Position numbers and translations under genes: made by a program
Assembly (NCBI RefSeq): GCF_000025925.1
Contig: NC_014033.1
Location: 2,010,001-2,042,000, forward strand
Length of the DNA: 32,000 bases
Source of the DNA: Xylanibacter ruminicola 23
GTDB lineage: Bacteria > Bacteroidota > Bacteroidia > Bacteroidales > Bacteroidaceae
Reading direction: 5' to 3'
The notes under the pieces: generated by a model
The model's input: the letters and a program-made list of their open reading frames with translations, nothing else
Told to the model about the DNA's origin: nothing
Database searches by the model: none
In this document: piece by piece, positions 754 through 27,350 of the stretch
Layout: each line of letters starts with the position of its first letter
How positions within the stretch are numbered: the stretch's first letter is position 1

Positions 754-808
754 ATTAAACATTAAATATTAAACATTAAACATTAAACATTAAACATTAA
801 ACATTAAG
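754..808. repeat. Heptanucleotide tandem array (ATTAAAC)n, about 7.8 units (one ATTAAAT variant), in the miaA / lipid-kinase junction
   Basis: Read directly: units at 754-760, 761-767 (variant), 768-774, 775-781, 782-788, 789-795, 796-802, then partial attaag. The TTAA core puts TAA in all three frames on both strands, and the miaA stop (797-799) is one of these. Confidence 0.95.
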
Positions 809-1708
809 CTTTAGGATTTCTTCTATTTTCTGATCCATGGGGAGGGTGGCATCAATCCAGTGGATGGTAAAGCCACGACGCTCCATGCCGCGGAACCACG
901 TCATCTGTCGCTTGGCAAACTGATGAATGGCTATCTCGAGCTTGCTGAACATCTCATCGTATGTGAGCTGTCCTATAATATATTCTGTCAAGAATTTATA
1001 CTCCAATCCGTAGTAAATCAAATCCTCGGGTGCAATGCCTTCGTCGAGCAAACGGCGCACTTCGTCGACCATTCCATTTTCCAAACGGGCCTTCAATCGG
1101 CGGGTAATCTTTTCACGGCGCAACTCTCTGTCGATATCGATACCGATGATGAGCGAATCCACAGGTGGCAGCTCTCTACGGGGCACTGGGTTCTCGAGAT
1201 TATACGTCTCAATCTCGATGGCACGGATGGCACGCTGACACGAATCCACATCTGTCTTGTTATGCATGTTCGAGCCCGTTCTGGCCTTCAGCTCCTGCAG
1301 CATCTGTGTAAGCTCAGGCAGCGTTTTGCCCTCCAGACTGTCGCGCAGCGCCTGGTTCTGGGGCACAGGCGATAGTTTGTAGCCCTTCAGCACAGCCTCG
1401 ATATAAAGGCCCGTGCCACCACACAGCACGGGCGTTTTGCCCCTACCCTGTATGTCCTGGTAGGCATCGTAAAAGTCCTGTTGGTATTGAAACAAATTGT
1501 ATTTGGTACCTGGTTCGCATATATCGATGAGGTGGTAAGGCACCTCGCCGTAGTCGGCGAGGTCCTTACCAGTACCGATATCCATGCGACGATATACCTG
1601 GCGCGAATCGGCCGAGATAATCTCACCCCCGATCTTGGCTGCCAGGTGGGCCGCCACGGGTGTTTTACCCGAGGCGGTTGGTCCCAATATCGTTATCATT
1701 CTATTCAT
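797..1708 (-). CDS. miaA: tRNA dimethylallyltransferase (tRNA delta2-isopentenylpyrophosphate transferase)
   Basis: P-loop ILGPTASGKT and SADSRQVYRRMDIGTGK, with IPPT-family length and layout. The track ORF starts at a GTG (1714); the first ATGs are at 1708 and 1699. Confidence 0.9.
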   Translation of the reverse strand: MNRMITILGPTASGKTPVAAHLAAKIGGEIISADSRQVYRRMDIGTGKDLADYGEVPYHLIDICEPGTKYNLFQYQQDFYDAYQDIQGRGKTPVLCGGTGLYIEAVLKGYKLSPVPQNQALRDSLEGKTLPELTQMLQELKARTGSNMHNKTDVDSCQRAIRAIEIETYNLENPVPRRELPPVDSLIIGIDIDRELRREKITRRLKARLENGMVDEVRRLLDEGIAPEDLIYYGLEYKFLTEYIIGQLTYDEMFSKLEIAIHQFAKRQMTWFRGMERRGFTIHWIDATLPMDQKIEEILKLNV

Positions 1709-1718
1709 TAGCACATTA

Positions 1719-2741: not shown

Positions 2742-4121
2742 TTACTTGGTTGCAGCCTTAGCGGCCAATTCCTTTAACTTGTCCTTACCCTTAAAGGCGA
2801 ATACCCATACCAGGAAACCTGCGATAACCAGCAAGGTAATGCCCAACAGCGGACGGTAGAACAGCCATGCCAGGGCAATCACTATCAGGCTCCACACTAC
2901 ACCCAGGATGGTGCATACCAATCCAACACCCCAGCCGAAAATGCCAGCGATGAATGGTACCACCTTCAGGATAGTCTCCAGGAATCCGAAGATGCCCTTC
3001 AATCCGCCAATCACCATCAGGATACCCACAATGCGCAGGGCCCACTTAATAAAGTTGTTACCCTCTTGCTCGGCCTCAATAATCTCGTCGCCACTCTTCT
3101 TACCCATCACCAGCGTCTGGAATCGCTTGCCGTTCTTGGCCTTAAAGGGCTTAAAGGTGTCGCCATCTACCACGGCCATCACCGTTACCTTGGCAGGCAC
3201 CACTTTCTCGAAGGTTACACGCACATCACCCACCTCAGGACTTCCAGGCACACGTCCAAAGTACAGCACGTTGCCAGCCTGGTGTACATACGCCAGATCC
3301 TTCTTATTCTGAGCAGCCTCCATGGCTTTGTTAATCGAGTCGTTCACAGCCTGTATCGAGTCCAACTGAGCCTTTACCGAATCAGGCAGCAGGGCCTTGA
3401 TCGAATCGGGGATGGCAGCTGGTTGCTGGGCCTCAGGTGCAGGCTGATTGTTATTCTTTGGGGCACCGTAGAATCGCTCGTAAGCGGTCTGGGTGTTCTT
3501 ATCGAATTGCTTCAGCAGATCCTCGGCAATGGCCAGGTCGAGTGCCTCACGCGAAGAAATGGCGTGAATCAGACTCTCGTTCAGCTTATAGGCACCCCAC
3601 TCTACGTTCTCGGCATACTGCTGGTCATTCTCAACAGTTGTCAGCACCATGTTCTTTTTCTGGTAAGCGGAATCCTTAAACTCAGCACTCTCAACGGGGC
3701 GGCTCACCCACTCTTTGGTATAGGTATAGGTGGTAGTAGTTACCTCTTTGCCACCCAACTTGTCTTCGCTCTTTTCCTTAGCATGCTCTACCCACTGGTA
3801 GTACTCCACGGTGCGTCGCATGGCAATGGCTGTGGCACCTACGCCAAAATCCTTGTCAATCAGCGAATCCTGCGTGGTGGCCAGTGCCGTACCACAAATC
3901 AGTTCGCCCTCCAGCTGGGCATCCTTCTTGGCGGGGTTAGGCATCTCTACATAGGCGCTCCCTGCCTCTTCCAGCATCTTTTCGGTCTTCACTGCACGTC
4001 CTTCGTTCCACCAAAGTAATGCAGTACCCAAGCAGAACAGCACAATGCCGCTGCCTATAGCCTTAAACGAATTTCCTACGCGGGTTCCATATCCCGTTGT
4101 TCTTACTTCTTGATAAGCCAT
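2742..4121 (-). CDS. TMEM43 / DUF1625-family integral membrane protein
   Basis: N-terminal TM followed by the LWWNEGRAV signature, a ~330-aa soluble middle part with a Q/P/A-rich low-complexity stretch, and four C-terminal TM helices (ALRIVGILMVIGG..., VPFIAGIFGWGVGLV..., VVWSLIVIALAWLF..., ITLLVIAGFLVWVFAF). Confidence 0.75.
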   Translation of the reverse strand: MAYQEVRTTGYGTRVGNSFKAIGSGIVLFCLGTALLWWNEGRAVKTEKMLEEAGSAYVEMPNPAKKDAQLEGELICGTALATTQDSLIDKDFGVGATAIAMRRTVEYYQWVEHAKEKSEDKLGGKEVTTTTYTYTKEWVSRPVESAEFKDSAYQKKNMVLTTVENDQQYAENVEWGAYKLNESLIHAISSREALDLAIAEDLLKQFDKNTQTAYERFYGAPKNNNQPAPEAQQPAAIPDSIKALLPDSVKAQLDSIQAVNDSINKAMEAAQNKKDLAYVHQAGNVLYFGRVPGSPEVGDVRVTFEKVVPAKVTVMAVVDGDTFKPFKAKNGKRFQTLVMGKKSGDEIIEAEQEGNNFIKWALRIVGILMVIGGLKGIFGFLETILKVVPFIAGIFGWGVGLVCTILGVVWSLIVIALAWLFYRPLLGITLLVIAGFLVWVFAFKGKDKLKELAAKAATK

Positions 4122-4146
4122 AATAATAAATAATAGGTTATTGGTA

Positions 4147-4174
4147 TAATGTTTAATGTATAATGTTTAATGTC
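4147..4174. repeat. Heptanucleotide array (TAATGTT-type), 4 units, at the 5'-nucleotidase / TMEM43-like junction
   Basis: Units are taatgtt 4147-4153, taatgta 4154-4160, taatgtt 4161-4167, taatgtc 4168-4174. This is the same unit family as 754-808 but in the opposite orientation, and it overlaps the 5'-nucleotidase stop (4167-4169). Confidence 0.85.
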
Positions 4175-5594
4175 TAAAAATTCTCCTACTGCCCTGATAG
4201 CTCACGTGGCCCTGGTGCTCCAGATAGTCCATCACCAGCTGGGCTGTAATCTTACCGATACCCTTACCTGGGTCCTTACGGTTAGTAGTGCTGATGGCCA
4301 CCGTATAGCTGTTGGTAATCACCTTGTAGGTCTTTTTCAGGTTCAGCTTCTTACCGTCCTCACCATACAGCACCACCTTTGTCAGGGCCTTGGTAGCAGG
4401 GTCAACGGTGTAATCCACCTTCATGCCACCTACATAGGGGAATCCCTGGTTATCGTTGTCGTAGCACTTCTTCATCATGTCAATCAGCTCCTTACCTGTC
4501 AGCTGCAGTTCGATAGCCTCGTTCTGGAATGGGTCCAGTCTCAGGGCATCGGCCACGGTAAAGCCACCCACAGGCTTTGTCTCGTAGCGCACACCACCCG
4601 GATTCTGGAAACTCAGGTCGGCATGACCCTCCTGTACGTAGGCATCGCACATCATGTTACCCAACTCCTCGTAGCACTCAAATGGTGTGTCCACCTGTGC
4701 CAGCACACGATAGAAGGCAGGGTTCTGCGAGAAATAATCCACCAAGGCTCTTACCACCTTATTCTCGTTCTTACCACCGCGAATGGCGATGTTTTCGGCC
4801 TGGCGATCCACCACCTTACCATCCTCAAGTGTCAGTGTGGTATGGGTAACACAAGCCAGTCGGTTCTTGTTCTGGGTGATAAACAGGCCATTGTGCATCT
4901 CACCACCCTTCAGCTGGGTGTGACTGTGTCCACCTACGATGATATCCACCCAAGGCAGATCCTTCGACACCTTTACATCGCTCTCAAAGCCCAGGTGCGA
5001 GAGGAACAGCACCACATCGCACTCCTTGCGCAGAAACTGGTACTGCTGCAATGTCTCCAGAGGGTCGGTAAACTTGATATCAACCGTATTTTTAGGGTGA
5101 CTCTCGGGGATACCCATCGCACCCAGTGCCACAGCACCTACGATACCCACCTTAATACCGCCGCAATCAAACACCTGGTAAGGCTTTACGTGCATGTTCC
5201 ACTTGGCATCGGGCTGCACATTGGCACACAGCGTGGGGAAAGCCGACATGCTAACCAGCTTAGCCAAACCCTCCTGTCCGGAGTCGAACTCGTGGTTACC
5301 CAGTGTGGTAGCATTAAAACCAATGATATTCATCAGTGCCACCATCGGATAGGCTGGTATCTCGTACATATCGTTCAGGGGTTCGCCCGAACGGTTATCG
5401 CCGGCACTCAGCACCAGCAAGTTGGGATACAAGGCACGCAGCGAGTCGGCCACAAAACCCACTCGTGGCATGCACTCTATAGCCGCATGCATATCGTTAG
5501 CACTCAGTATGTGTAGCTCTTTCTTTCCGCCGGCCTGAACACACAGTCCTGCCAGCAGCATCATCGATGCCAATACATATTTCTTTTTAAACAT
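4167..5594 (-). CDS. Secreted bifunctional metallophosphatase / 5'-nucleotidase (UshA-like)
   Basis: Calcineurin-like phosphoesterase motifs NDMHA, AGDN, GNHEFD and GGHSHT, followed by a C-terminal 5'-nucleotidase substrate-binding-type domain. I place the start at MFKKKYVLASMMLLAGLCVQA (ATG 5594-5592), a good signal peptide. The 19-codon upstream extension in the track ORF runs through repeat/hairpin sequence. Confidence 0.85.
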   Translation of the reverse strand: MFKKKYVLASMMLLAGLCVQAGGKKELHILSANDMHAAIECMPRVGFVADSLRALYPNLLVLSAGDNRSGEPLNDMYEIPAYPMVALMNIIGFNATTLGNHEFDSGQEGLAKLVSMSAFPTLCANVQPDAKWNMHVKPYQVFDCGGIKVGIVGAVALGAMGIPESHPKNTVDIKFTDPLETLQQYQFLRKECDVVLFLSHLGFESDVKVSKDLPWVDIIVGGHSHTQLKGGEMHNGLFITQNKNRLACVTHTTLTLEDGKVVDRQAENIAIRGGKNENKVVRALVDYFSQNPAFYRVLAQVDTPFECYEELGNMMCDAYVQEGHADLSFQNPGGVRYETKPVGGFTVADALRLDPFQNEAIELQLTGKELIDMMKKCYDNDNQGFPYVGGMKVDYTVDPATKALTKVVLYGEDGKKLNLKKTYKVITNSYTVAISTTNRKDPGKGIGKITAQLVMDYLEHQGHVSYQGSRRIFRH

Positions 5595-5665
5595 AATGTT
5601 TAATCTTTTAATCGTTTCTTTAGTACGCTTGCCTAAGCAAGAATGTTTCATGTTTAATCTTTAAA
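5594..5665. repeat. Two short heptamer runs flanking a CTTGC-N4-GCAAG mini-hairpin in the small-ORF / 5'-nucleotidase junction
   Basis: First run is taatgtt taatctt ttaatcg (5594-5614). The hairpin cttgc ctaa gcaag is at 5628-5641. Second run is aatgttt catgttt aatcttt (5642-5662). Confidence 0.6.
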
Positions 5666-5872: not shown

Positions 5873-5929
5873 TTAATGTTTTAATCTTTCAAGCTCAAAG
5901 CTTAATGTTTAATGCTTAATCTTTAATGT
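5873..5929. repeat. Heptanucleotide array (TTAATGT/TTAATCT units), about 8 units, interrupted by an AAGCT-CAA-AGCTT mini-palindrome; DUF2207 / small-ORF junction
   Basis: Units are ttaatgt 5873-79, (t) ttaatct 5881-87, ttcaagc, tcaaagc, ttaatgt 5902-08, ttaatgc 5909-15, ttaatct 5916-22, ttaatgt 5923-29. Positions 5897-5910 (aaagcttaatgttt) are the exact reverse complement of 799-812. Confidence 0.9.
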
Positions 5930-5930
5930 A

Positions 5931-7574
5931 TCATCGTACGCCGCCTCCTCCGCCGCCGCCCGAGAAGCCGCCTCCGCCGCCTCCCCACGACGAGTGTCCG
6001 CCACCACCGCTTGCACGGTGTTCGCGTGCTGCCTTGGCAGCCACGGCACTCGATGTACTACGCTGCAGGGTACTGTAAATCAGTGGCAGCGTCATGTTGT
6101 CGGCCATGGTACTGGCCACACGGTCCATATCAAAGTAGGCAGGGTTCACCTGCTTCATTTCCTTAATCACCTTATCGGCTATACCAAACAGCGTGGCATA
6201 TATCATATAATCCTTCCACAGCTTTACTTCCTTCAGTTCGCGCTCATCCAACAGTGTAAATTCTTTCAGGAATTTTCGCAATCCAAACACCTCATTCACA
6301 CCCTTATCGTATGGAGGATACTTCGACAGATCCTTCTTGGCGTGCAAGGTAGTGATAAACTGGTCGATAGCACTCTGATGGGTTCTGCTCTTCATATACG
6401 ATTTCAGCTCCCATGGCTCCAATATTCTGTCGCTGCCTGCCGCATCCTTAAACATCTTGTACAGCTGGCGCATCAGCACAGGCTGCTTGTCAATATCCTT
6501 GTAGTCGTGCATCACAAAGTTGGGTTCCATCTTACCCTTCGAGTTAGGTTTTGTCTCAATGGTGATAACGCCCATGCTGATCAATTTCAGGATACAAGCC
6601 GACATCAGATTATTATAATCGCTGTTAAAATATTTATAGGCATTTAGTATCTTGTTAGCCTCCTGCAGATTGCCGTTCACTGGCACATCACGATACCACA
6701 TCAGCCCTTTGTTCAGTTGGCGCTTGGCCCGCCATACACGGTACATCTGCCACACGGCGCCACCAATAACCAACAGGGCTGCTCCGCCGTAAAACAGGAT
6801 GAACAGCACCCACTCAAAGGGACTCATATCATCCTCGTCGTCCTCATCGTACACGTAGTCGCTGCCCTCAAAGGCCTCGTCCTTCTTGTTCTCAAAGGTG
6901 TCGTTCTCCCATACGGTAGGCTCAAACATGCTCTTGGGGAATTTCACCATCAGGTACAATCCAGCCTCGTCGCTCATGGGCTTGGTGGTCTCTGCCATCA
7001 CAAAGCCGTCCTGCATCCATATCTCACCCTCGAACCTAAAGCCCCACACGCCGCACGAATCCTCGTTAATCACCATCGTACTGTCGGCAGTAGTAATGGC
7101 CACGCGGGCATGCTCAGGTTTAGGCGACACAGCGGTATCCAGGAACACGTGGCGGATGGCACACGCATCGGGATAGCCGCGCACCAGTCCAGTCATCACA
7201 TAGGTGGTGGTGTACGTACGCTCGCCCTCGGCACCCAGGCCCCAGCACAACTCAAAGCCGCGCTTGGTGGTAACAATACCGCATTTGTACTGTTTCCAAC
7301 TGCGCGTCTGGTTCACGTCCCAATCCGTATATACATATCGGGCGCCCGTTTCGTCGGTCACTGTCAGGTTCTTTACAATGCTTGGCCCCATGTTAGCCAA
7401 GCCGATATAGCACTCTGTACCCTCGCTATCAATGGTCATCTGTCGTGTTTCAGTAATCAGGGCGTCGCCATTTTTATAAAGCACCACCCGTATGTCCAGG
7501 TCGTGTAACTGCGGACGGGCCAATACCTGTATTACCCCAAGCAGCAAAAGTACGATTGTCAATTTCGCTTTCAT
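5931..7574 (-). CDS. DUF2207-family membrane protein with poly-glycine C-terminal tail
   Basis: Signal peptide MKAKLTIVLLLLGVIQVLA, an N-terminal extracytoplasmic domain, central TM helices (WVLFILFYGGAALLVIGGAVW), a cytoplasmic domain, and a terminal SGGGGHSSWGGGGGGFSGGGGGGGVR tail that is typical of DUF2207 proteins. The track ORF begins at a TTG (7586); the ATG is at 7574-7572. Confidence 0.8.
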   Translation of the reverse strand: MKAKLTIVLLLLGVIQVLARPQLHDLDIRVVLYKNGDALITETRQMTIDSEGTECYIGLANMGPSIVKNLTVTDETGARYVYTDWDVNQTRSWKQYKCGIVTTKRGFELCWGLGAEGERTYTTTYVMTGLVRGYPDACAIRHVFLDTAVSPKPEHARVAITTADSTMVINEDSCGVWGFRFEGEIWMQDGFVMAETTKPMSDEAGLYLMVKFPKSMFEPTVWENDTFENKKDEAFEGSDYVYDEDDEDDMSPFEWVLFILFYGGAALLVIGGAVWQMYRVWRAKRQLNKGLMWYRDVPVNGNLQEANKILNAYKYFNSDYNNLMSACILKLISMGVITIETKPNSKGKMEPNFVMHDYKDIDKQPVLMRQLYKMFKDAAGSDRILEPWELKSYMKSRTHQSAIDQFITTLHAKKDLSKYPPYDKGVNEVFGLRKFLKEFTLLDERELKEVKLWKDYMIYATLFGIADKVIKEMKQVNPAYFDMDRVASTMADNMTLPLIYSTLQRSTSSAVAAKAAREHRASGGGGHSSWGGGGGGFSGGGGGGGVR

Positions 7575-7583
7575 TACAAGGTG

Positions 7584-7591
7584 CAAATTTA
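7584..7591 (-). promoter_or_regulatory. Candidate Bacteroidetes -7 box TAaaTTTG for the DUF2207 gene
   Basis: The reverse complement of caaattta (7584-7591) is TAAATTTG, matching the TAnnTTTG consensus. It ends only 9 nt before the ATG at 7574, which implies a near-leaderless mRNA if it is used. Confidence 0.35.
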
Positions 7592-8724: not shown

Positions 8725-8934
8725 AATGGTACATTAGTTCATTAGTTCATTTCCAATTCTAAGAGACAAAAGCAGGAGGGCGAGAGAGGGTAACGGGAGG
8801 TGGAGACTATATTTATTCTATATTATATATTAAATTTATATATATTATAATATATATAAATTATATAAAGCAATAAGAGCCCACGGATGCGCTACTAAAT
8901 TTTACAAAATGAACTAATGAACTAATGTACCATT
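8725..8934. repeat. Perfect 28-bp inverted repeat pair (8725-8752 / 8907-8934) enclosing a 154-bp segment
   Basis: I paired it base by base: aatggtacattagttcattagttcattt against aaatgaactaatgaactaatgtaccatt, 28/28, with mismatches immediately outside on both sides. The interior holds an 85% purine tract (8761-8807) and a nearly pure A/T block (8808-8869) that contains a perfect 30-bp palindrome (8833-8862). Confidence 0.95.
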
Positions 8935-12765: not shown

Positions 12766-12811
12766 GGCGGCAAAAAACCAATGATTGCAAAATACAGATT
12801 ACAATTCATAC

Positions 12812-12848
12812 ATTAATATATTAAACATTAAACATTAAACATTTAAAG
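12812..12848. repeat. Heptanucleotide array (ATTAAAC)n, 3 perfect plus 2 degenerate units, ending 3 nt before the mscL ATG
   Basis: attaaac occurs at 12820-26, 12827-33 and 12834-40, flanked by attaata and atttaaag. Positions 12815-12829 (aatatattaaacatt) are identical to 749-763. Confidence 0.9.
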
Positions 12849-12851
12849 CTT

Positions 12852-13250
12852 ATGGGATTTATTAAAGAATTCAAGGAGTTTGCCGTTAAGGGCAATGTGA
12901 TGGACATGGCAGTGGGTGTTATCATTGGCGGTGCCTTTGGTAAGATTGTAAGCTCGCTGGTTGACGATGTGCTGATGCCTGTTGTAGGTATGGTTACTGG
13001 CAATGTAGATTTTACCAGCCTGGCTTTCCAGATTGGCGAAGGCGAGGGTGCAGCTGTGCTGAAGTATGGTACGTTTATACAGAACGTGGTAGATTTTGTG
13101 ATCGTGGCATTCTGTATCTTCCTGATGCTGAAGGGCATTAACAAGCTGAACCGCAAGAAGGAAGAGCCTGCTCCAGAGCCCGAGGCTCCTAAGGGTCCCA
13201 CCCAGGAAGAGCTGCTGGCTGAGATCAGAGATCTGCTGAAAAATAAATAA
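12852..13250 (+). CDS. mscL: Large-conductance mechanosensitive channel
   Basis: [43 protein letters not shown]... is the canonical MscL N-terminus and TM1. 132 aa. Confidence 0.95.
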
Positions 13251-20094: not shown

Positions 20095-20100
20095 AGATAT

Positions 20101-20129
20101 AATTTACAATTTGACAATTTACAATTTAC
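20101..20129. repeat. Short 7/8-bp array (AATTTAC)n, 4 units, at the nucleotidyltransferase / guaA junction
   Basis: Units are aatttac 20101-07, aatttgac 20108-15, aatttac 20116-22, aatttac 20123-29. The array contains the upstream gene's stop (20119-21). Confidence 0.8.
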
Positions 20130-20883
20130 TATTGATAAACGCTTCGGCTTGATCGAGGGTGTCGAGTTTGCCTACGTCCATCAACCTCAGATCCTTGGCC
20201 TCGTAACCACGAATCAGATGGGTGCCACAGGCCTTGAGATAAAAGTCCATAATGGGGAAGCGATCGGGCCACTCATCCAACAATGGCACGAGTGATGGGT
20301 GGAACACGTGAATGCCCGAAAAAGCGAGCTTTCGCAATTGACCATTCTTGCCTTGCAAGCCAGCAGAGCTGGAGCGGACCATTGACCATTGACCATTAGA
20401 GATGGGGCCTTTGAGAGCGCCGGTTTCGATGTTGGTCCAGCCATGCAGGCGCATCTCGTCATCGAACATCAGATAACGCTTGGTCTGGCGCTCGCTGACT
20501 ACCAGCAAGGGGGCACCCATGGGCAGCGCCTCGAGGTCGAGATTGCTCAGGATATCCACATTATGAATCAGGATGGGCTCATTGGCATCAAACAAAGGCA
20601 GCGCCTTCTTGATGCCACCACCTGTTTCGAGCAGCGCACTGGTTTCGTCGCTGATACGGATATCCAAACCAAAGTTATGATTTTCCTCAAGATAGGTTAC
20701 AATCTGATCGGCAAAGTGGTGAACATTTACCACAATGCGCTCATAACCAGAGGATTTAAGTTTTTGTATTACATGCCAAATGAGCGGCTGCCCCCCTACC
20801 CTCACCAGTGCCTTAGGCATGGTGTCGGTTAGTGGCTTGAGACGAGTGCCAAGCCCTGCGGCAAATATCATCGCTTGCTTCAT
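20119..20883 (-). CDS. Sugar-phosphate nucleotidyltransferase, MurU-like (N-acetylmuramate-1-phosphate uridylyltransferase family)
   Basis: N-terminal AAGLGTRLKPLTDTMPKALV nucleotide-binding signature, ETGGG, and FSGIHVFHP. The track ORF starts at a GTG (20892); the ATG (MKQAMIF) is at 20883. Confidence 0.75.
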   Translation of the reverse strand: MKQAMIFAAGLGTRLKPLTDTMPKALVRVGGQPLIWHVIQKLKSSGYERIVVNVHHFADQIVTYLEENHNFGLDIRISDETSALLETGGGIKKALPLFDANEPILIHNVDILSNLDLEALPMGAPLLVVSERQTKRYLMFDDEMRLHGWTNIETGALKGPISNGQWSMVRSSSAGLQGKNGQLRKLAFSGIHVFHPSLVPLLDEWPDRFPIMDFYLKACGTHLIRGYEAKDLRLMDVGKLDTLDQAEAFINSKL

Positions 20884-20910
20884 TCGGCGCACTATGCTTT
20901 ATTTGGGGTG

Positions 20911-20986: not shown

Positions 20987-23947
20987 TTAGAACATACGTG
21001 GGCCTCCGAAGCCGCCGCCACCACGACGACCGCCGCCGAAGCCACCACCACCTGGGCGACCACCGCCAGGACCACCAAAGCCACCACGACCAGGACCACC
21101 AGGGCCACCAAAGCCACCCTGACGACCAGCCTTACCACCAAACAGGTTCAAACGATAGATGACGTGAACCATGCCATAGCTGGTAACGGCATTGTACTGG
21201 GTATCGTTACGCATCATAGCTGTGACTGTGCTCGACAATGTGCTCTGCTGGTGCAGGATGTCGTACAGCTGCAGCGAGATGGTAAGGGGCTTACCCTTGA
21301 GGAAGCTCTGCGAGAGCTGGGCATTCCAGATAAGCTCGTTGGTGTTCATCGAGGCATCGTAGTAACCACGACGGCTCTGCATGTTCAGGTTGGTAGTAAG
21401 CGATGTGCCCCAAGGAGCTGTTACGCCCACCATACCTCCGTAGGTAAACTGCCAGGTATCAAGGTTATTACTGGTTTGCAACTCGCTACGGTTGCGGTTG
21501 TAGTTGAGCGATCCGTTGAGCTCGATCTCCAACCAATCGTTACGATAGCTGAAAGCCAGGCGCTCCATGATGGTCTGCGACTTAGTAACAGCCTTGGCAT
21601 CGCTCACACCATCATTAACAAAACCTACGTTGTGGTTGTATCCAAAGTTAGTAAATGTATTCACGTTAAAGTAACCAGCCGAGTCGATGGCTGTGTTGAA
21701 CATAAAGCCAACGTTGGCATTCCAGTTACCATTGATATTCTCAGGACGAGTCATACGTGCACCACCATCCAACAGGGTAACCTTGTTGGCGATAGAGTTA
21801 GCGGTGGTAGAGAAGTTTACGAATGTCATCACAGCACGCTGGTGCTTCTGGAAGTAATCGTTGTAGAACAGCTGGAAGTTCTGACGGAACGAAGGCTTCA
21901 AGCCAGGGTTACCTCGTGTAATGTTCAAGGGGTCGCTGTTATCTACGATATCCAGCAGATCGCTCATAGAGGGCTGCGAGGTGTTGGCACGATAGGTGAA
22001 GCGCAACTGACCAGTCTGCGACTTCTTCCAACGGAAGTCCATGGTAGGTGCAAAGTTGGTAACAGTGCGGGTGGTATCGGCATGGATACCCTTGTAGTCC
22101 TGAATAAAGTGCGACTTCTGAGGCACCATCTGCACACCAATATTAAAGGTATATGAGTTGCGAACGATACGCAGCATCAACTCAGCGGTGTGGATGTAGT
22201 TCTGATACTCAGAGTAGCGGCTCTGGCTATCATCGCGATAAGGATCGAGCGAAGTGATACGACCAAACTGGCCCAGATACTCATCCCATGAGCGATAACC
22301 ACCATTCCATGCAGCAACGGGATCAACCTTACTGAAATCATAGGTACCACGATCGCTCTTCTGGAAACGGTACTGGTACTGATAGCTGAACTGCAAGTAA
22401 GTGCGAGGCAGAATAGGCTCGCTATAAGTAATGCGTGCGCTATAGTTCCAGTTCTTGGTTGGGGTGATAGAATAACGATTGGTAATGGTGGTTGAATCGA
22501 CAATTCCTAAGGTGTAATAGTTAATCAGGCTGTTTGAAGCCGATTTGCTGGTGCCGTCGCTCCAACCTGCATTCAGCTGTACAGTGATGTTACGACCTGT
22601 ATTGCTGAGACGACGGTTGAACTGCAACATACCACTTACATTCTTTGAATCGCTATACGATACGCTGTTCTGCGTACGGTTGTTCTTCAGGAAATCCTTC
22701 AGCTCATCCAACTGGTCGAGCGGACTAGTGATACGCTTATTGTCGAAAGGATTGGCAGTAAAGGTAGCCTCGGCACCCTCGTTATCGCCATCCTGAGAGT
22801 TATAACGGAAGTTTGGGCGGAACATGATGTTGGTCATCGAGTCGGGGGTCCACTCCAAACGCATCTGGGCATTCCAGTTGTTAGAACGGGTATAGTTCTG
22901 TGTAAGACTGTTACCATACTGCGAGTTGGTAGCACCATACATAGTCATGCTGGTAACCTTTGAGAGGGCATCGCCATCGCTGTGGTTCCAACGTACACTA
23001 CCATCCAGAACCAGCTTACCTGTATTCTCGTAGTTCAGGTTGATACCAGTCATCTTATTAGCTGTAAGACCCTGGCGACCACCGCCAAAACGGCCACCAC
23101 CGCCACCACCGGGGAATCCCATATCGTTGGTGTTGTTGGCATTGGTCATCAGGAACACCTTCATATCGCTATTCATGATACCACCGAAGATACGGCCTGC
23201 ATAACGGTTCTTAGTACCTGCGGCAAGGTCGGCATTCATCATAAAGCCCTTGTTCATACCCTGCTTGATACCAAAGTCGAGCACAGTCTCCTCTTCGCCA
23301 TCCTCGATACCTGATACACGGGCCAGGTCGCTCTGCTTATCGTAAGCCTTAATGCGGTCGATGATATTGGTAGGCAGATTCTTCATGGCAGTCTTGGTAT
23401 CGCCAGTCATAAACTCCTTACCATCTACCAGAATCTTCTTCACCTCCTTACCATTAATCTTAATAGTACCATCGTCGCTCACCTCGGCACCAGGCAGACG
23501 CTTAACCAGCTCCTCAACTACCGAGCCCTCGGGGGTACGGAAGGCAGCAGCATTATATACAAAGGTGTCGGCCTTCAGTGTCACCTTCGAGGCGCGTGCT
23601 GTAACAGTGGCACCCTTCAGCATGATAGCATCGGGACTGAGCGAGATGGTGCCGGCATTGTAACCCTTACCATCCTTTAAAGTAAACTTCTTGGTGTAAG
23701 TCTTAAAGCCCACGTAGGTAATCTTCAAGGTGTAAGTACCATCGCTGGGGGCTGTAACACGGAATGCACCATCGGTGTTGGTAACACCATTGGCCACAAC
23801 CTTCTCGCCTGAGAGAATAGAAGCGGTGGCCTGAATAACTGCATCCTGCGTATCCTGCTCAATCACTTTACCTGTAACCACGCGCTGTGCGTGTACCGAC
23901 AATACCGTAAACATTACGGCCATCATGAATAGTAATAATCTTCTCAT
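20987..23947 (-). CDS. Large outer-membrane beta-barrel protein (TonB-dependent-receptor-like, carboxypeptidase-regulatory-like N-domain) with Gly/Arg-rich C-terminal tail
   Basis: Signal peptide MRRLLLFMMAVMFTVLSVHAQ, a CarboxypepD_reg-like domain (VTGKVIEQDTQDAV...NTDGAFRV...YTLKITYVGF), and a long barrel with alternating strands. An internal FPGGGGGGRFGGGRQG stretch and a terminal GGFGGPGGPGRGGFGGPGGGRPGGGGFGGGRRGGGGFGGPRMF tail are present. Confidence 0.8.
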   Translation of the reverse strand: MRRLLLFMMAVMFTVLSVHAQRVVTGKVIEQDTQDAVIQATASILSGEKVVANGVTNTDGAFRVTAPSDGTYTLKITYVGFKTYTKKFTLKDGKGYNAGTISLSPDAIMLKGATVTARASKVTLKADTFVYNAAAFRTPEGSVVEELVKRLPGAEVSDDGTIKINGKEVKKILVDGKEFMTGDTKTAMKNLPTNIIDRIKAYDKQSDLARVSGIEDGEEETVLDFGIKQGMNKGFMMNADLAAGTKNRYAGRIFGGIMNSDMKVFLMTNANNTNDMGFPGGGGGGRFGGGRQGLTANKMTGINLNYENTGKLVLDGSVRWNHSDGDALSKVTSMTMYGATNSQYGNSLTQNYTRSNNWNAQMRLEWTPDSMTNIMFRPNFRYNSQDGDNEGAEATFTANPFDNKRITSPLDQLDELKDFLKNNRTQNSVSYSDSKNVSGMLQFNRRLSNTGRNITVQLNAGWSDGTSKSASNSLINYYTLGIVDSTTITNRYSITPTKNWNYSARITYSEPILPRTYLQFSYQYQYRFQKSDRGTYDFSKVDPVAAWNGGYRSWDEYLGQFGRITSLDPYRDDSQSRYSEYQNYIHTAELMLRIVRNSYTFNIGVQMVPQKSHFIQDYKGIHADTTRTVTNFAPTMDFRWKKSQTGQLRFTYRANTSQPSMSDLLDIVDNSDPLNITRGNPGLKPSFRQNFQLFYNDYFQKHQRAVMTFVNFSTTANSIANKVTLLDGGARMTRPENINGNWNANVGFMFNTAIDSAGYFNVNTFTNFGYNHNVGFVNDGVSDAKAVTKSQTIMERLAFSYRNDWLEIELNGSLNYNRNRSELQTSNNLDTWQFTYGGMVGVTAPWGTSLTTNLNMQSRRGYYDASMNTNELIWNAQLSQSFLKGKPLTISLQLYDILHQQSTLSSTVTAMMRNDTQYNAVTSYGMVHVIYRLNLFGGKAGRQGGFGGPGGPGRGGFGGPGGGRPGGGGFGGGRRGGGGFGGPRMF

Positions 23948-25218: not shown

Positions 25219-25254
25219 TAGGACTGCTCGCGAGAGTAGTCCTATTCACTTTTT
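25219..25254. terminator. Intrinsic terminator between convergent aroB and menE
   Basis: taggactgctc gcga gagtagtccta: an 11-bp stem (one G.T/G.U pair) with a GCGA tetraloop at 25219-25244, followed by ttcacttttt. Confidence 0.7.
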
Positions 25255-26241
25255 AGCCAGTTCTTCGGCCCTTTTTCGGGCTGGTTTGCCTGTTTCGGTA
25301 AGCGGTATTTGGTTTACGTGCAAGTAAACTTTAGGTTGATGGTACTTGGGCAGCACCTGCTCGCAGATGGTTTGCGCCTCGGCGGTATCACCCTCGGTCA
25401 ACAGCACCACTATCTCACCAAACTTCTCGTCCTTACGTTTACTTATAATATAAGGTACGCGCATGTACTTTTTTAGAATTTGCTCAACCTCCTCGATCTG
25501 AATCTTGATACCACCCGAACAAATCACATTGTCCTTACGACCACGGATGCGGAATCTTCCATCGGACTTCAACTCTACAATATCGTTGGTAGTCAATGTC
25601 TGGGCGCAAACCTCAGGAGCATCAATCACCAGACAACCCTCGTCGGTAGTACTCAACTTAACGGTGGGGAAAGGCATGTACCACTCAGAGGCCTCAGGGC
25701 CACTGATGCGACGCAGGGCGATATGCGAGAGTGTCTCCGTCATACCATATGTGCTCCAAACAGCATGGGGGAAGGTACGCAGCTCGGCCTCCATCGCCTC
25801 GTCGATAGCACCACCACCAATAATCAGATGTCGGATAGCCATCAGTCGCTCCTTCTCCTCAGGCACCTGCAATGAGTTATACACCTGCATAGGCACCATG
25901 GCGGCAAAATCAAATTGAAAATTGAAAATTGAAAATTGAGAATGTTTAATGTTTAATGTTAAATGTTTAATGTCAAGTGGATGCCCACAGGGGGGCACCT
26001 CAATTAATTTAAGGCCACGCTCAATAGAGCGTACCACCATCATCTTACCAGCAATATAATCGGTACTCATACACAGCAGCGCCGTATCGCCAGGCTTCAA
26101 TCCCAAAAAGTCGCAGGTTATGCGTGCAGAATTAAGCATCCTGCGCTTCTCTACCAGCATACGTTTGGGCTCACCAGTACTACCACTGGTTTTCACCTCA
26201 ACATACGCCGAATCATTATTCCACTCGTCTATAAACGCCAT
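25246..26241 (-). CDS. menE: O-succinylbenzoate-CoA ligase (short Bacteroidetes form) carrying an in-frame repeat-derived segment
   Basis: AMP-binding signature TSGSTGEPK, then YGMTET and a late GRxD...SGG region. It is the last gene of the men cluster and overlaps the menC stop by 13 nt. Residues DIKHLTLNIKHSQFSIFNFQF are encoded by heptamer arrays. Confidence 0.85.
   Translation of the reverse strand: MAFIDEWNNDSAYVEVKTSGSTGEPKRMLVEKRRMLNSARITCDFLGLKPGDTALLCMSTDYIAGKMMVVRSIERGLKLIEVPPCGHPLDIKHLTLNIKHSQFSIFNFQFDFAAMVPMQVYNSLQVPEEKERLMAIRHLIIGGGAIDEAMEAELRTFPHAVWSTYGMTETLSHIALRRISGPEASEWYMPFPTVKLSTTDEGCLVIDAPEVCAQTLTTNDIVELKSDGRFRIRGRKDNVICSGGIKIQIEEVEQILKKYMRVPYIISKRKDEKFGEIVVLLTEGDTAEAQTICEQVLPKYHQPKVYLHVNQIPLTETGKPARKRAEELAKK
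25910..25979. repeat. Composite heptanucleotide array inside menE: (GAAAATT)3-4 followed by (TTTAATG)4 with one TTAAATG variant
   Basis: Units are tcaaatt 25910-16, gaaaatt at 25917-23, 25924-30 and 25931-37, gagaatg 25938-44, tttaatg 25945-51 and 25952-58, ttaaatg 25959-65, tttaatg 25966-72, tcaagtg 25973-79. There are 14 G/C in 70 nt. Confidence 0.95.
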
Positions 26242-27257: not shown

Positions 27258-27350
27258 TAATAAAGGCCGTGTTCGCTCGGCTTTCTTGCCTTGCAAGCGA
27301 CCATAGGTCGAGCGGCCGCTTGGCTCGTCCAAGAATCCGTGCCTAATAAA

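What the first reader, a model, noticed from the sequence alone, without database searches (positions are those of the whole stretch)
25910..25979. Intergenic-type heptamer arrays are translated in frame inside menE and kept open by one variant unit
On the + strand, 25910-25979 reads tcaaatt (gaaaatt)x3 gagaatg (tttaatg)x2 ttaaatg tttaatg tcaagtg. That is ten 7-bp units at 20% G+C inside otherwise ordinary coding sequence. It encodes the low-complexity stretch DIKHLTLNIKHSQFSIFNFQF between ...PPCGHPL and DFAAMVPMQVYN of the O-succinylbenzoate-CoA ligase ORF. The TTTAATG units belong to the same TTAA-core repeat that fills gene junctions elsewhere in the window (754-808, 5873-5929, 12812-12848), where successive units put TAA into every frame. 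Here the reverse-strand TAAs fall at 25946-48, 25953-55, 25959-61 and 25967-69, and none is in the menE frame. A canonical third unit (tttaatg instead of ttaaatg) would put TAA at 25960-62, exactly in frame. So a 1-nt register shift in one unit is what keeps the gene open, which looks like selection after an insertion or expansion. Gain or loss of any single 7-bp unit would frameshift menE, giving a possible slipped-strand on/off switch for menaquinone synthesis.
Basis: partly seen in the sequence, partly recalled or inferred. Interest (0 to 1): 0.7.

Follow-up and report, generated by a model that had tools for sequence, protein, structure and literature searches.

The report
Translated heptamer repeats in MenE loop
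A 63-base run of 7-base repeats sits in frame in a dispensable surface loop of a vitamin-K2 synthesis enzyme of the rumen bacterium Xylanibacter (Prevotella) ruminicola. It looks like tolerated "junk" DNA kept readable by selection, not a genetic on/off switch.

Summary
Window 25909-25971 (minus strand) holds nine in-phase 7-nt units (21 codons) inside the menE ORF, and the variant unit ATTTAAC does remove the only in-frame TAA.

Most orthologues have a 7-8-residue linker at this position, so about 14 residues are extra. The AlphaFold model has its lowest confidence there, and the closest solved structure aligns with a gap.

DNA-based sampling of rumen metagenomes shows that this codon position is an insertion hot spot. 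I found 49 distinct linker alleles of 21-117 nt. They carry other heptamer arrays, long palindromes, REP-like hairpins and a dispersed 30-nt double-hairpin element. Every allele has a length divisible by three and no stop codon. Heptamer copy number changes in steps of three units.

Within X. ruminicola the array length is constant (96 of 120 closest protein clusters), and no frameshifted allele was seen. The slipped-strand switch is therefore not supported.

A second gene in the window, a nucleotidyltransferase, shows the series 1 unit, then 4 units, then 4 units plus the 30-nt element.

The closest known parallels are bacterial heptanucleotide repeats and Rickettsia palindromic elements or intragenic REPs. 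I found no description for Prevotella.

The parts
25246..26241 (-). menE ORF (331 aa), O-succinylbenzoate-CoA ligase, short Bacteroidota-type ANL enzyme
   Evidence: ORF. Source names and Pfam PF00501. Neighbours are MenC (PF21508, PF13378) and MenB-type (PF00378) genes in orthologous loci. The model matches 4gs5 and the MenE structures 5bur and 6nj0.
25909..25971 (-). Nine in-phase heptamer units (63 nt = 21 codons, residues 91-111), the translated insert
   Evidence: Sequence. TRF. About 14 residues longer than the family linker. Mean pLDDT about 76 for residues 91-110 against 94 overall. No predicted single-strand structure.
25944..25971 (-). Sub-array A: ATTAAAC ATTTAAC ATTAAAC ATTAAAC, the commonest unit of this lineage's intergenic arrays
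   Evidence: The canonical unit AAACATT is the most frequent period-7 unit in 1.25 Mb of related loci.
25958..25964 (-). Variant unit ATTTAAC, which removes the only in-frame TAA of sub-array A
   Evidence: Coordinate arithmetic. Allele L006 has ATGAAAC at the same unit, an independent fix.
25909..25943 (-). Sub-array B: ATTCTCA (ATTTTCA)x3 ATTTGAT. It has no stop in any frame in this orientation. It looks like an expansion of the ancestral ..TCAATTnGAT end of the linker.
   Evidence: Related alleles carry TATCAAT, TGTCAAT or GGTCAAT arrays ending in the same TCAATTAGAT. P0099 has the CAATTGT version at the same length.
20335..20397 (-). Second in-frame composite in the window: (AATGGTC)x3 + 30-nt element + AATGGTC AATTG inside the nucleotidyltransferase ORF 20119..20892. 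It encodes SNGQWSMVRSSSAGLQGKNGQL.
   Evidence: The DNA series runs 1 unit (L184), 4 units (L183), 4 units + 30 nt (window). Protein series.
20347..20376 (-). 30-nt double-hairpin element CGCTCCAGCTCTGCTGGCTTGCAAGGCAAG
   Evidence: Folds as two 5-bp hairpins. Stem covariation. At least 120 matches in genome contigs, nearly all titled Prevotella, Prevotellaceae or Xylanibacter.
27274..27333 (+). Outer 30-nt element in the menB-menC spacer (canonical orientation on +), carrying a nested inner copy
   Evidence: The same nested composite occurs inside menE allele L028.
27285..27314 (-). Inner 30-nt element CGCTCGACCTATGGTCGCTTGCAAGGCAAG, nested in the loop CGGC^AAAGCCG of the outer copy
754..807 (.). 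Intergenic-type ATTAAAC array (7.7 units). By coordinates it contains the stop (797-799) of ORF 797..1714 (-).
4144..4177 (.). TAATGTT array at a gene junction. It contains the stop (4167-4169) of ORF 4167..5651 (-).
5900..5929 (.). TTAATGT-type array just downstream of the stop of ORF 5931..7586 (-). In L083 a similar array next to a similar G+C-rich (gccgcctcctccgccgcc) stretch carries a 30-nt element.
12810..12843 (.). ACATTAA array upstream of ORF 12852..13250 (+)
20101..20133 (.). AATTTAC array between the nucleotidyltransferase and guaA. It supplies the last codons and the stop (..SKL*) of the nucleotidyltransferase.
   Evidence: The orthologous spacer in L183 holds a different (AATGNTC) array.

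Best explanation
The segment is a translated, lineage-specific insertion made of heptanucleotide simple-sequence repeats. It lies in a permissive linker between two beta strands of the N-terminal domain of MenE.

Rumen Prevotellaceae genomes produce period-7 tandem arrays in large numbers, most likely by replication slippage (inferred). They also carry small hairpin repeats. Such sequences persist where they do no harm: in gene junctions, and in a few protein loops.

Inside a gene, selection passes only changes that add a multiple of three bases and contain no stop. The filter shows in three ways:
- heptamers are gained three at a time (21 nt, 7 residues);
- the TAA-bearing ATTAAAC array is capped at four units and carries a repaired unit;
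- the 30-nt hairpin element, which is mostly open in all six frames, adds exactly 10 residues.

The window's allele is one stable outcome of this process. It combines an ATTAAAC array with an expansion of the ancestral ..TCAATTnGAT end of the linker. It is read through by the ribosome and has no demonstrated function of its own.

What is shown: the anatomy, the extra length, frame conservation, the three-unit steps, exact filled/empty pairs for the 30-nt element, and length stability within the species. What is inferred: slippage as the generator, neutrality of the peptide, and surface exposure.
For: - **Extra length.** The insert adds about 14 residues to a 7-8-residue family linker. PDB 4gs5 aligns with a gap there.
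- **Structure.** The model has mean pLDDT 94 overall but about 76 for residues 91-110, which lie between strands 78-81 and 112-115.
- **Frame conservation.** A gene-call-independent DNA scan returned 53 metagenome loci. Together with the earlier loci they give 49 distinct linker alleles of 21-117 nt. All have length mod 3 = 0 and none has a stop.
- **Three-unit steps.** menE: L048 (1 TATCAAT unit) against L035 (4 units); L042 against L021 (+7 residues). Nucleotidyltransferase: 1 unit, then 4 units, shown on DNA, and further +7-residue pairs.
- **Independent repairs.** Two different substitutions remove the in-frame TAA in the same unit: ATTTAAC in the window and ATGAAAC in L006.
- **Exact 30-nt presence/absence pairs.** Window against L004, L035 against L026, L001 against L018, L017 against L050, and P0273/L183 against the window's nucleotidyltransferase.
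- **Abundance of period 7.** 120 arrays in 1.25 Mb of related loci, against 27 of period 8 and 3 of period 6. 57 of 144 period-7 arrays lie in long stop-free spans.
- **Stability within the species.** 96 of 120 closest clusters share the linker length. Residue variability inside the insert is no higher than outside: 5 of 21 against 54 of 310 variable sites.
- **Literature.** Papers I read describe heptanucleotide repeats as the most abundant long SSR class in many bacteria, attributing this and a polymerase-slippage explanation to Mrazek et al. 2007 (PMC4679880, PMC4692102).
Against: - No read-level, proteomic or enzymatic data were available. Translation of the insert and its neutrality rest on frame conservation only.
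- The unit ATTAAAC is not obviously derived from the local ancestral sequence and is the commonest unit elsewhere in these genomes. The same AATGGTC-array-plus-element composite occurs in three unrelated genes: menE alleles L001/L002, the window's nucleotidyltransferase, and a glycosidase in L049. Arrival of ready-made arrays by recombination, or together with the 30-nt element, is therefore not excluded.
- The protein search is blind to frameshifted alleles, and only about 50 loci were sampled by DNA. Rare off-variants inside populations could have been missed.
- Surface exposure is inferred from confidence values and alignment gaps, not from coordinates.
Confidence: 0.72

Rival explanations
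1. Contingency locus: gain or loss of single 7-nt units by slipped-strand mispairing switches menE, and so menaquinone synthesis, on and off.
For: The unit length is not a multiple of three, so any single-unit change would frameshift. Heptamer arrays are clearly dynamic over evolutionary time in this lineage.
Against: - No out-of-frame allele among 49 distinct alleles.
- Linker length is constant in 96 of 120 closest clusters.
- The tracts are short and interrupted.
- Differences between alleles are 21 or 30 nt.
- menE is a housekeeping gene in an operon, not a surface or restriction gene of the kind that usually phase-varies (my own knowledge).
Confidence: 0.04
2. The arrays did not grow in place. 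Ready-made intergenic arrays, or array-plus-30-nt-element composites, were copied into the loop by recombination, gene conversion or transduction of flanks during element movement.
For: - ATTAAAC is the commonest unit genome-wide.
- An almost identical composite, (AATGKTC)3 + element + AATGGTC AATT, sits in menE (L001), in the nucleotidyltransferase (window) and in a glycosidase (L049).
- The CCAGC-stem subfamily is found almost only in AATNNTC arrays.
- P0099 looks like a recombinant between two allele types.
Against: - Several series start from a single unit that is part of the ancestral coding sequence and grow by three units with identical flanks: L048 to L035 and L184 to L183.
- Filled/empty pairs show the 30-nt element entering arrays that already existed, without bringing flanks.
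Confidence: 0.15
3. The insert is adaptive. The extra loop, or the AT-rich unstructured stretch in the mRNA, has a function such as partner binding, regulation of MenE, or a translational pause or internal signal.
For: The insert is retained unchanged in most sampled X. ruminicola and is not more variable than the rest of the protein. The array is predicted to be free of secondary structure.
Against: - Sister lineages carry completely unrelated sequences of 7 to 39 residues at the same place, or none.
- The same repeat types decorate unrelated proteins.
- The peptide is simply the three-frame reading of a 7-nt unit.
Confidence: 0.07
4. The insert is not translated: it is bypassed or spliced out, or menE is a pseudogene or a split gene.
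For: Two contigs (L049, L182) join the C-terminal part of menE to other genes exactly at the repeat.
Against: - If the segment were removed or the gene were dead, there would be no reason for 49 of 49 alleles to keep the frame and avoid stops, or for two independent repairs of the in-frame TAA.
- The flanks are under strong conservation.
- L049 joins at a repeat shared by both genes, as expected of a chimeric assembly.
Confidence: 0.02

Closest known systems
Heptanucleotide long simple-sequence repeats of bacteria (Mrazek et al. 2007 as summarised in PMC4679880 and PMC4692102; the TAACTGA repeats of Beggiatoaceae, Cyanobacteria and some Bacteroidetes)
   Same: Head-to-tail 7-nt units. Period 7 far outnumbers other periods. 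Mostly at gene junctions next to start or stop codons. Occasionally inside ORFs, where one orientation is translatable. Unit sequence varies between related strains.
   Different: Many different units occur here rather than one. A sizeable share of arrays sits in frame inside housekeeping genes and changes in three-unit steps. The arrays also hold about a third of the copies of a 30-nt hairpin element. I found no description for Prevotella or Xylanibacter.
Rickettsia palindromic elements (RPE) and intragenic REPs (PMC10969869; PMC3733652)
   Same: Dispersed short repeats inserted in frame into unrelated, functional genes, adding 10-30 residues while the ORF stays open. Hairpin-forming. Sometimes clustered or nested.
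   Different: The menE insert in the window is not palindromic and not a copy of a dispersed element. It is a tandem repeat. The associated element is only 30 nt (RPEs are about 100-150 bp), has two adjacent 5-bp hairpins after a CGCT head (not GTAG or CGTC), always lies 5' of AA, and has no target duplication. No sequence relationship to RPEs was tested.
Slipped-strand contingency loci (for example the tetranucleotide tracts of Haemophilus influenzae, PMC2651432)
   Same: A tandem repeat whose unit is not a multiple of three, inside an ORF.
   Different: Contingency tracts are long, perfect and polymorphic in length between and within strains, including out-of-frame states. Here the tracts are short and interrupted, length is fixed within the species, and only in-frame states are seen.
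IS200/IS605-derived miniature elements and REP/RAYT systems (PMC6006769; PMC3116915)
   Same: For the 30-nt element only: hairpins at the ends, no target-site duplication, insertion next to a short fixed sequence, and preference for hairpin loops and repeats, which would suit a single-strand mechanism.
   Different: No transposase was found. The target is only a dinucleotide plus a weak -1 C. Length is fixed at 30 nt. More than half of the copies lie in long stop-free spans rather than between genes.

Membership tests
MenE / ANL adenylate-forming enzymes | AMP-binding domain with the P-loop TSGSTGxPK, an ANL fold, and a men operon context | tested here: met
   TSGSTGEPK at residues 18-26. PF00501 and source names. 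Foldseek hits 4gs5, 5bur and 6nj0. MenC- and MenB-type neighbours.
Heptanucleotide simple-sequence repeats (LSSR) | Head-to-tail 7-nt units, at least 3 copies, beyond chance | tested here: met
   TRF scores 57 and 59. 9 arrays in the window against 0 in 100 shuffles.
Heptanucleotide simple-sequence repeats (LSSR) | Period 7 over-represented in the genome or lineage | tested here: met
   120 arrays of period 7 against 27 of period 8 and 3 of period 6 in 1.25 Mb of related loci. The loci were selected around menE and the 30-nt element, so the density is biased upward. The window alone has 7 of period 7 against 1 of period 8.
Slipped-strand contingency locus | Long uninterrupted tract | tested here: not met
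   At most two identical ATTAAAC units in a row and three identical ATTTTCA units.
Slipped-strand contingency locus | Tract-length polymorphism among close relatives, including out-of-frame alleles | tested here: not met
   Same length in 96 of 120 closest clusters. All 49 distinct alleles are in frame.
Slipped-strand contingency locus | Within-culture length heterogeneity and switching of expression | not testable with these tools
   Needs raw reads and expression data.
RPE-like / intragenic REP in-frame selfish repeats | Member of a dispersed multi-copy repeat family | tested here: inconclusive
   Met for the 30-nt element (at least 120 genome hits; 131 copies in held loci). The menE insert of the window is a tandem array, not a copy of a dispersed element, although its unit is shared with many arrays.
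RPE-like / intragenic REP in-frame selfish repeats | Palindromic or hairpin-forming | tested here: not met
   The 75-nt menE segment folds no better than shuffles (-0.9 kcal/mol, z = +1.9). The 30-nt element does form two hairpins, with compensatory changes in 4 of 10 pairs.
RPE-like / intragenic REP in-frame selfish repeats | Inserted in frame in unrelated functional genes with the ORF preserved | tested here: met
   menE and the nucleotidyltransferase in the window. The 30-nt element lies inside aspartokinase-homoserine dehydrogenase, a P-type ATPase and a Mur ligase-alanine racemase, with Pfam domains spanning the insert. 69 of 111 unique copies lie in stop-free spans of at least 600 nt.
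REP/RAYT (REPIN) system | GTAG or CGTC head next to the palindrome, and an associated RAYT gene | tested here: not met
   The head is CGCT. tblastn with IS200, IS608 and RAYT sequences written from memory found nothing in 1.25 Mb. That is a weak test, because a single-copy gene would rarely fall in the sampled flanks.
IS200/IS605-type single-strand transposition (30-nt element) | No target duplication, fixed short target at one end, terminal hairpins, Y1 HUH transposase | tested here: inconclusive
   No duplication at the 72 non-array sites. The 3' flank is always AA and -1 is C in about 70%. Hairpins confirmed. No transposase found.

The most novel reading that the evidence does not exclude
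One machinery may lie behind both the heptamer arrays and the 30-nt element. For example, a nuclease or transposase acting on single-stranded DNA at ..C^AA.. could insert the element and also provoke 7-nt duplications. Rumen Prevotellaceae would then carry an ongoing, sequence-targeted process that lengthens and remodels surface loops of ordinary enzymes in frame. That would be a natural loop-insertion mutagenesis system, not just tolerated junk.
Probability: 0.1. Interest if true: 0.8.

Novelty: new member of a known kind. Interest (0 to 1): 0.5.

Why it matters
**Annotation.** Low-complexity stretches such as IKHLTLNIKHSQFSIFNFQF or RSAEGRLQGK in Prevotella proteins are repeat-derived inserts. 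They are not sequencing errors, domain features or switches.

**Assembly.** These repeats break or mis-join metagenome assemblies exactly inside genes (L049, L182, and the short contigs L180 and L181).

**Protein evolution.** The data give a clean natural experiment on what a protein loop tolerates: 49 alleles of 7 to 39 residues at one codon position of an otherwise 90-100% conserved enzyme. They also show how the reading frame filters microsatellite dynamics, through three-unit steps and repaired stop codons.

**A possible new element.** The 30-nt element is exactly 30 nt in 130 of 131 copies, is mostly open in six frames, and is spread through rumen Prevotellaceae. If it proves to be mobile, it would be among the smallest mobile-looking bacterial repeats I know of.

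Tried and rejected
- **Rfam.** A scan of the whole window at gathering thresholds gave no match.
- **tRNA hypothesis.** In four genomes the 30-nt element abuts a tRNA-like 3' half, so I asked whether it interrupts a tRNA. ARAGORN finds no tRNA there with or without the element. Left unexplained.
- **Target-site duplication.** Flanks match 6-7 of 7 bases only where the element sits in an array. The 72 non-array copies show no duplication. The idea that heptamer arrays are excision footprints of this element is therefore not supported.
- **Transposase search.** tblastn with remembered IS200, IS608 and RAYT sequences gave no hits. This is a weak test.
- **Proteins starting at Met115.** I checked P0237, P0165 and P0130 as possible frameshifted alleles. 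Two are contig-end truncations. One is a junction with another gene at a long palindrome.
- **Hypervariability by point mutation within the species.** Not found.
- **Literature.** Searches for Prevotella heptanucleotide or palindromic in-frame repeats returned nothing specific.
Full report
**1. What is in the window**

It lies in ORF 25246..26241 on the minus strand, 331 aa. The product is 100% identical to a protein that several sources name O-succinylbenzoic acid--CoA ligase of Xylanibacter (Prevotella) ruminicola. That protein occurs on 57 contigs, the longest 3,619,559 bp.

Orthologous loci show the gene after MenB-type and MenC genes. The predicted structure matches the short ANL protein 4gs5 and MenE structures from Bacillus subtilis and E. 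coli.

On the coding strand the repeat is best described as nine units in a single phase, from 25971 down to 25909: ATTAAAC ATTTAAC ATTAAAC ATTAAAC ATTCTCA ATTTTCA ATTTTCA ATTTTCA ATTTGAT. This is 63 nt, or 21 codons, covering residues 91-111. The window holds nine period-7 arrays of at least three copies, against none in 100 dinucleotide-preserving shuffles.

A perfect ATTAAAC array puts TAA into each frame every three units. The second unit (25958-25964) is ATTTAAC, which moves the only in-frame TAA out of frame. The array stops after four units, just before the next in-frame TAA would fall.

**2. The segment is extra**

I aligned 94 representatives of the family, clustered at 50% identity. 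In most of them the linker between the conserved GHPL and FAAMVP motifs is 7-8 residues. X. ruminicola has 22. A few other lineages also carry unrelated inserts at this place.

The closest solved structure, 4gs5, aligns with a 13-residue gap exactly here. The AlphaFold model has mean pLDDT 94, but the two ten-residue blocks covering 91-110 average 76, the lowest in the protein. They lie between strands 78-81 and 112-115. This fits a surface excursion, although I could not inspect coordinates.

**3. The site is an insertion hot spot**

Among near-identical orthologues (91-100% identity) the flanks are invariant while the linker differs completely in sequence and length.

To avoid the bias of protein searches, I scanned metagenome contigs with the conserved downstream DNA, ATGGTGCCNATGCAGGTGTAYAACTC. 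This returned 53 loci. Together with the loci fetched earlier they give 49 distinct linker alleles of 21-117 nt. Every allele has a length divisible by three and none contains a stop. The single exception, L049, joins menE to a glycosidase gene at a repeat that both genes share. It is most simply a chimeric assembly.

The alleles contain:
- other heptamer arrays (TATCAAT/TGTCAAT, GTTCAAT/GGTCCAT, TCTCCAC);
- long perfect palindromes (33-nt arms in L029 and L036);
- REP-like CCCCTCC..GGAGGGG hairpins;
- a 30-nt element described in section 6.

**4. How the frame filter shows**

Heptamer numbers differ by three units.
- In menE, L048 has one TATCAAT unit and L035 has four, with the same flanks. 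L042 and L021 differ by seven residues.
- In the nucleotidyltransferase of the window (ORF 20119..20892) the DNA series is one AATGGTC unit (L184), four units (L183), and four units plus the 30-nt element (window). Further +7-residue pairs appear among 120 orthologues.

The in-frame TAA of the ATTAAAC array has been removed twice in different ways: ATTTAAC in the window and ATGAAAC in L006.

These patterns are what purifying selection on a translated segment produces. They argue against bypassing, splicing or a dead gene.

**5. No sign of a switch**

Of the 120 closest protein clusters, 96 have the window's 22-residue linker length. Of these, 88 are identical and 8 differ by one residue. Within that set the insert is not more variable than the rest of the protein: 5 of 21 against 54 of 310 variable sites.

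No allele differs by one or two units. Proteins that start at Met115, which a frameshift would create, turned out to be contig-end truncations or a junction at a palindrome. The tracts are short and interrupted.

A low-frequency switch inside populations cannot be excluded without reads, but nothing supports it.

**6. The 30-nt element**

Its form is CGCT + 5-bp stem, 3-nt loop, stem + CTTGC, 3-nt loop, GCAAG. A variant has 4-bp and 6-bp stems.

*Filled and empty pairs.* Exact 30-nt pairs exist for:
- the window allele against L004 (opposite orientation);
- L035 against L026;
- L001 against L018 (a second copy in the next unit);
- L017 against L050 (in a hairpin loop);
- P0273/L183 against the window's nucleotidyltransferase.

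*Copies in the window.* There are three: 20347-20376 in the nucleotidyltransferase, and a nested pair at 27274-27333 between menB and menC.

Nearly all are titled Prevotella, Prevotellaceae or Xylanibacter, many from rumen or other ruminant gut samples. They include X. ruminicola D31d and Ga6B6 and X. brevis ATCC 19188.

*Properties.*
- 130 of 131 copies in the held loci are exactly 30 nt.
- The 3' flank is always AA, including the seven copies that the scan pattern did not force. The base before the element is C in about 70%.
- There is no target duplication at 72 non-array sites.
- 20 of 28 sequence variants are open in all six frames.
- The stems show compensatory changes, and the DNA folds into the two hairpins.

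*Location.*
- About a third of unique copies sit exactly at a unit boundary of a heptamer array.
- 69 of 111 unique copies lie in stop-free spans of at least 600 nt, most often in the frame reading RS..G.LQGK.
- Pfam domains span the insert in an aspartokinase-homoserine dehydrogenase, a P-type ATPase and a Mur ligase-alanine racemase fusion.

I could not separate true targeting of arrays from better survival there. I found no transposase (a weak test).

**7. Origin of the window's allele (inference)**

Sub-array B, (TTTCAAT)n TTGAT, has the same register and end as the TATCAAT, TGTCAAT and GGTCAAT arrays of sister alleles. These alleles share an ancestral-looking ..TCAATTAGAT end, so sub-array B probably grew in place.

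Sub-array A (ATTAAAC) is shared with alleles L004, L006 and L028, whose right ends differ. P0099 combines sub-array A with a CAATTGT version of sub-array B. The window allele may therefore be a recombinant of two expanded alleles.

ATTAAAC is also the commonest unit elsewhere in these genomes. Import of a ready-made array is not excluded.

**8. Comparison with what is known**

Papers I read state that heptanucleotide units are the most abundant class of long simple-sequence repeats in many bacteria. They attribute this, and a polymerase-slippage explanation, to Mrazek et al. 2007 (PMC4679880, PMC4692102). TAACTGA heptamer arrays next to start codons have been described in Beggiatoaceae, Cyanobacteria and a few Bacteroidetes, including the point that one orientation can be translated (PMC4679880).

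In-frame insertion of short palindromic repeats into functional genes is known from Rickettsia RPEs and from intragenic REPs (PMC10969869, PMC3733652).

The present case belongs to these kinds. My searches found no description for Prevotella or Xylanibacter, nor of the three-unit quantisation, this hot spot, or the 30-nt element.

**9. Verdict**

- The reading that the array is an inserted or expanded repeat kept open by selection is supported.
- The on/off switch is not supported.
- The thing itself is a new example of a known kind of tolerated repeat DNA inside a gene. Its wider context, a loop hot spot and a 30-nt in-frame element spread through rumen Prevotellaceae, is more interesting than the array alone.

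Noticed in passing
window 20335-20397 (ORF 20119..20892, minus strand): A second housekeeping gene (nucleotidyltransferase, PF00483) carries an in-frame heptamer array plus a 30-nt hairpin element. Its orthologues form a length series at this one loop: base length, +7, +14, +10, and nested +20 to +33 residues.
   Followed up: yes
window 27274-27333; also L020, L028, L068, L084, L096, L109, L122: A 30-nt element nested in the loop of another copy of opposite orientation recurs as a 60-nt composite, both between genes and inside a menE allele.
   Followed up: partly
L069, L085, L102 (X. brevis ATCC 19188, about 3198-3229), L130: The 30-nt element lies directly upstream of a tRNA-like 3' half (..GTGGGTTCGAGTCCCACCGGGCAAACCA), conserved in four genomes. 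ARAGORN calls no tRNA with or without the element.
   Followed up: partly
L029, L036 (menE linker); L182 121-215: Long near-perfect palindromes (arms of about 33 nt) are translated in frame inside menE. L031 looks like the collapsed form, which suggests inverted duplication by template switching.
   Followed up: no
L012, L015, L017, L041 (menE linker); L066, L076, L087, L104, L138 and others: A second dispersed REP-like family, TTCAGACC(A/C)CACCCCT..CCCCTCC-loop-GGAGGGG, occurs both in the menE linker and elsewhere. It often has a 30-nt element inserted at ..CCCCT^AAC...
   Followed up: no
window 754-807, 4144-4177, 20101-20133: By coordinates, the stop codons (and for the nucleotidyltransferase the last three codons, SKL) of three minus-strand ORFs lie inside heptamer arrays. 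The arrays appear to have replaced the original gene ends.
   Followed up: partly
L183 1030-1060 against window 20095-20135: The orthologous spacer between the nucleotidyltransferase and guaA holds arrays with different units in two strains about 94% identical in the gene (AATGNTC against GTAAATT).
   Followed up: no
window 21002-21118 and 5939-5984: Two minus-strand ORFs (20987..23947, a 986-aa outer-membrane-type protein, and 5931..7586) have G+C-rich repeats at their 3' ends. In the first ORF these encode a glycine-rich tail (GGFGGPGGPGRGGFGG...). The tail of the second was not translated.
   Followed up: no
window 8808-8867: A TA-rich low-complexity stretch (period 2/16/18 by TRF) lies in an apparently non-coding region, flanked by two 8-nt repeats (8732-8751 and 8908-8927).
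   Followed up: no
L049 1-540; L182 1-230: Contigs join the C-terminal two thirds of menE to other genes exactly at the repeat. These are either chimeric assemblies at dispersed repeats or real recombination.
   Followed up: partly
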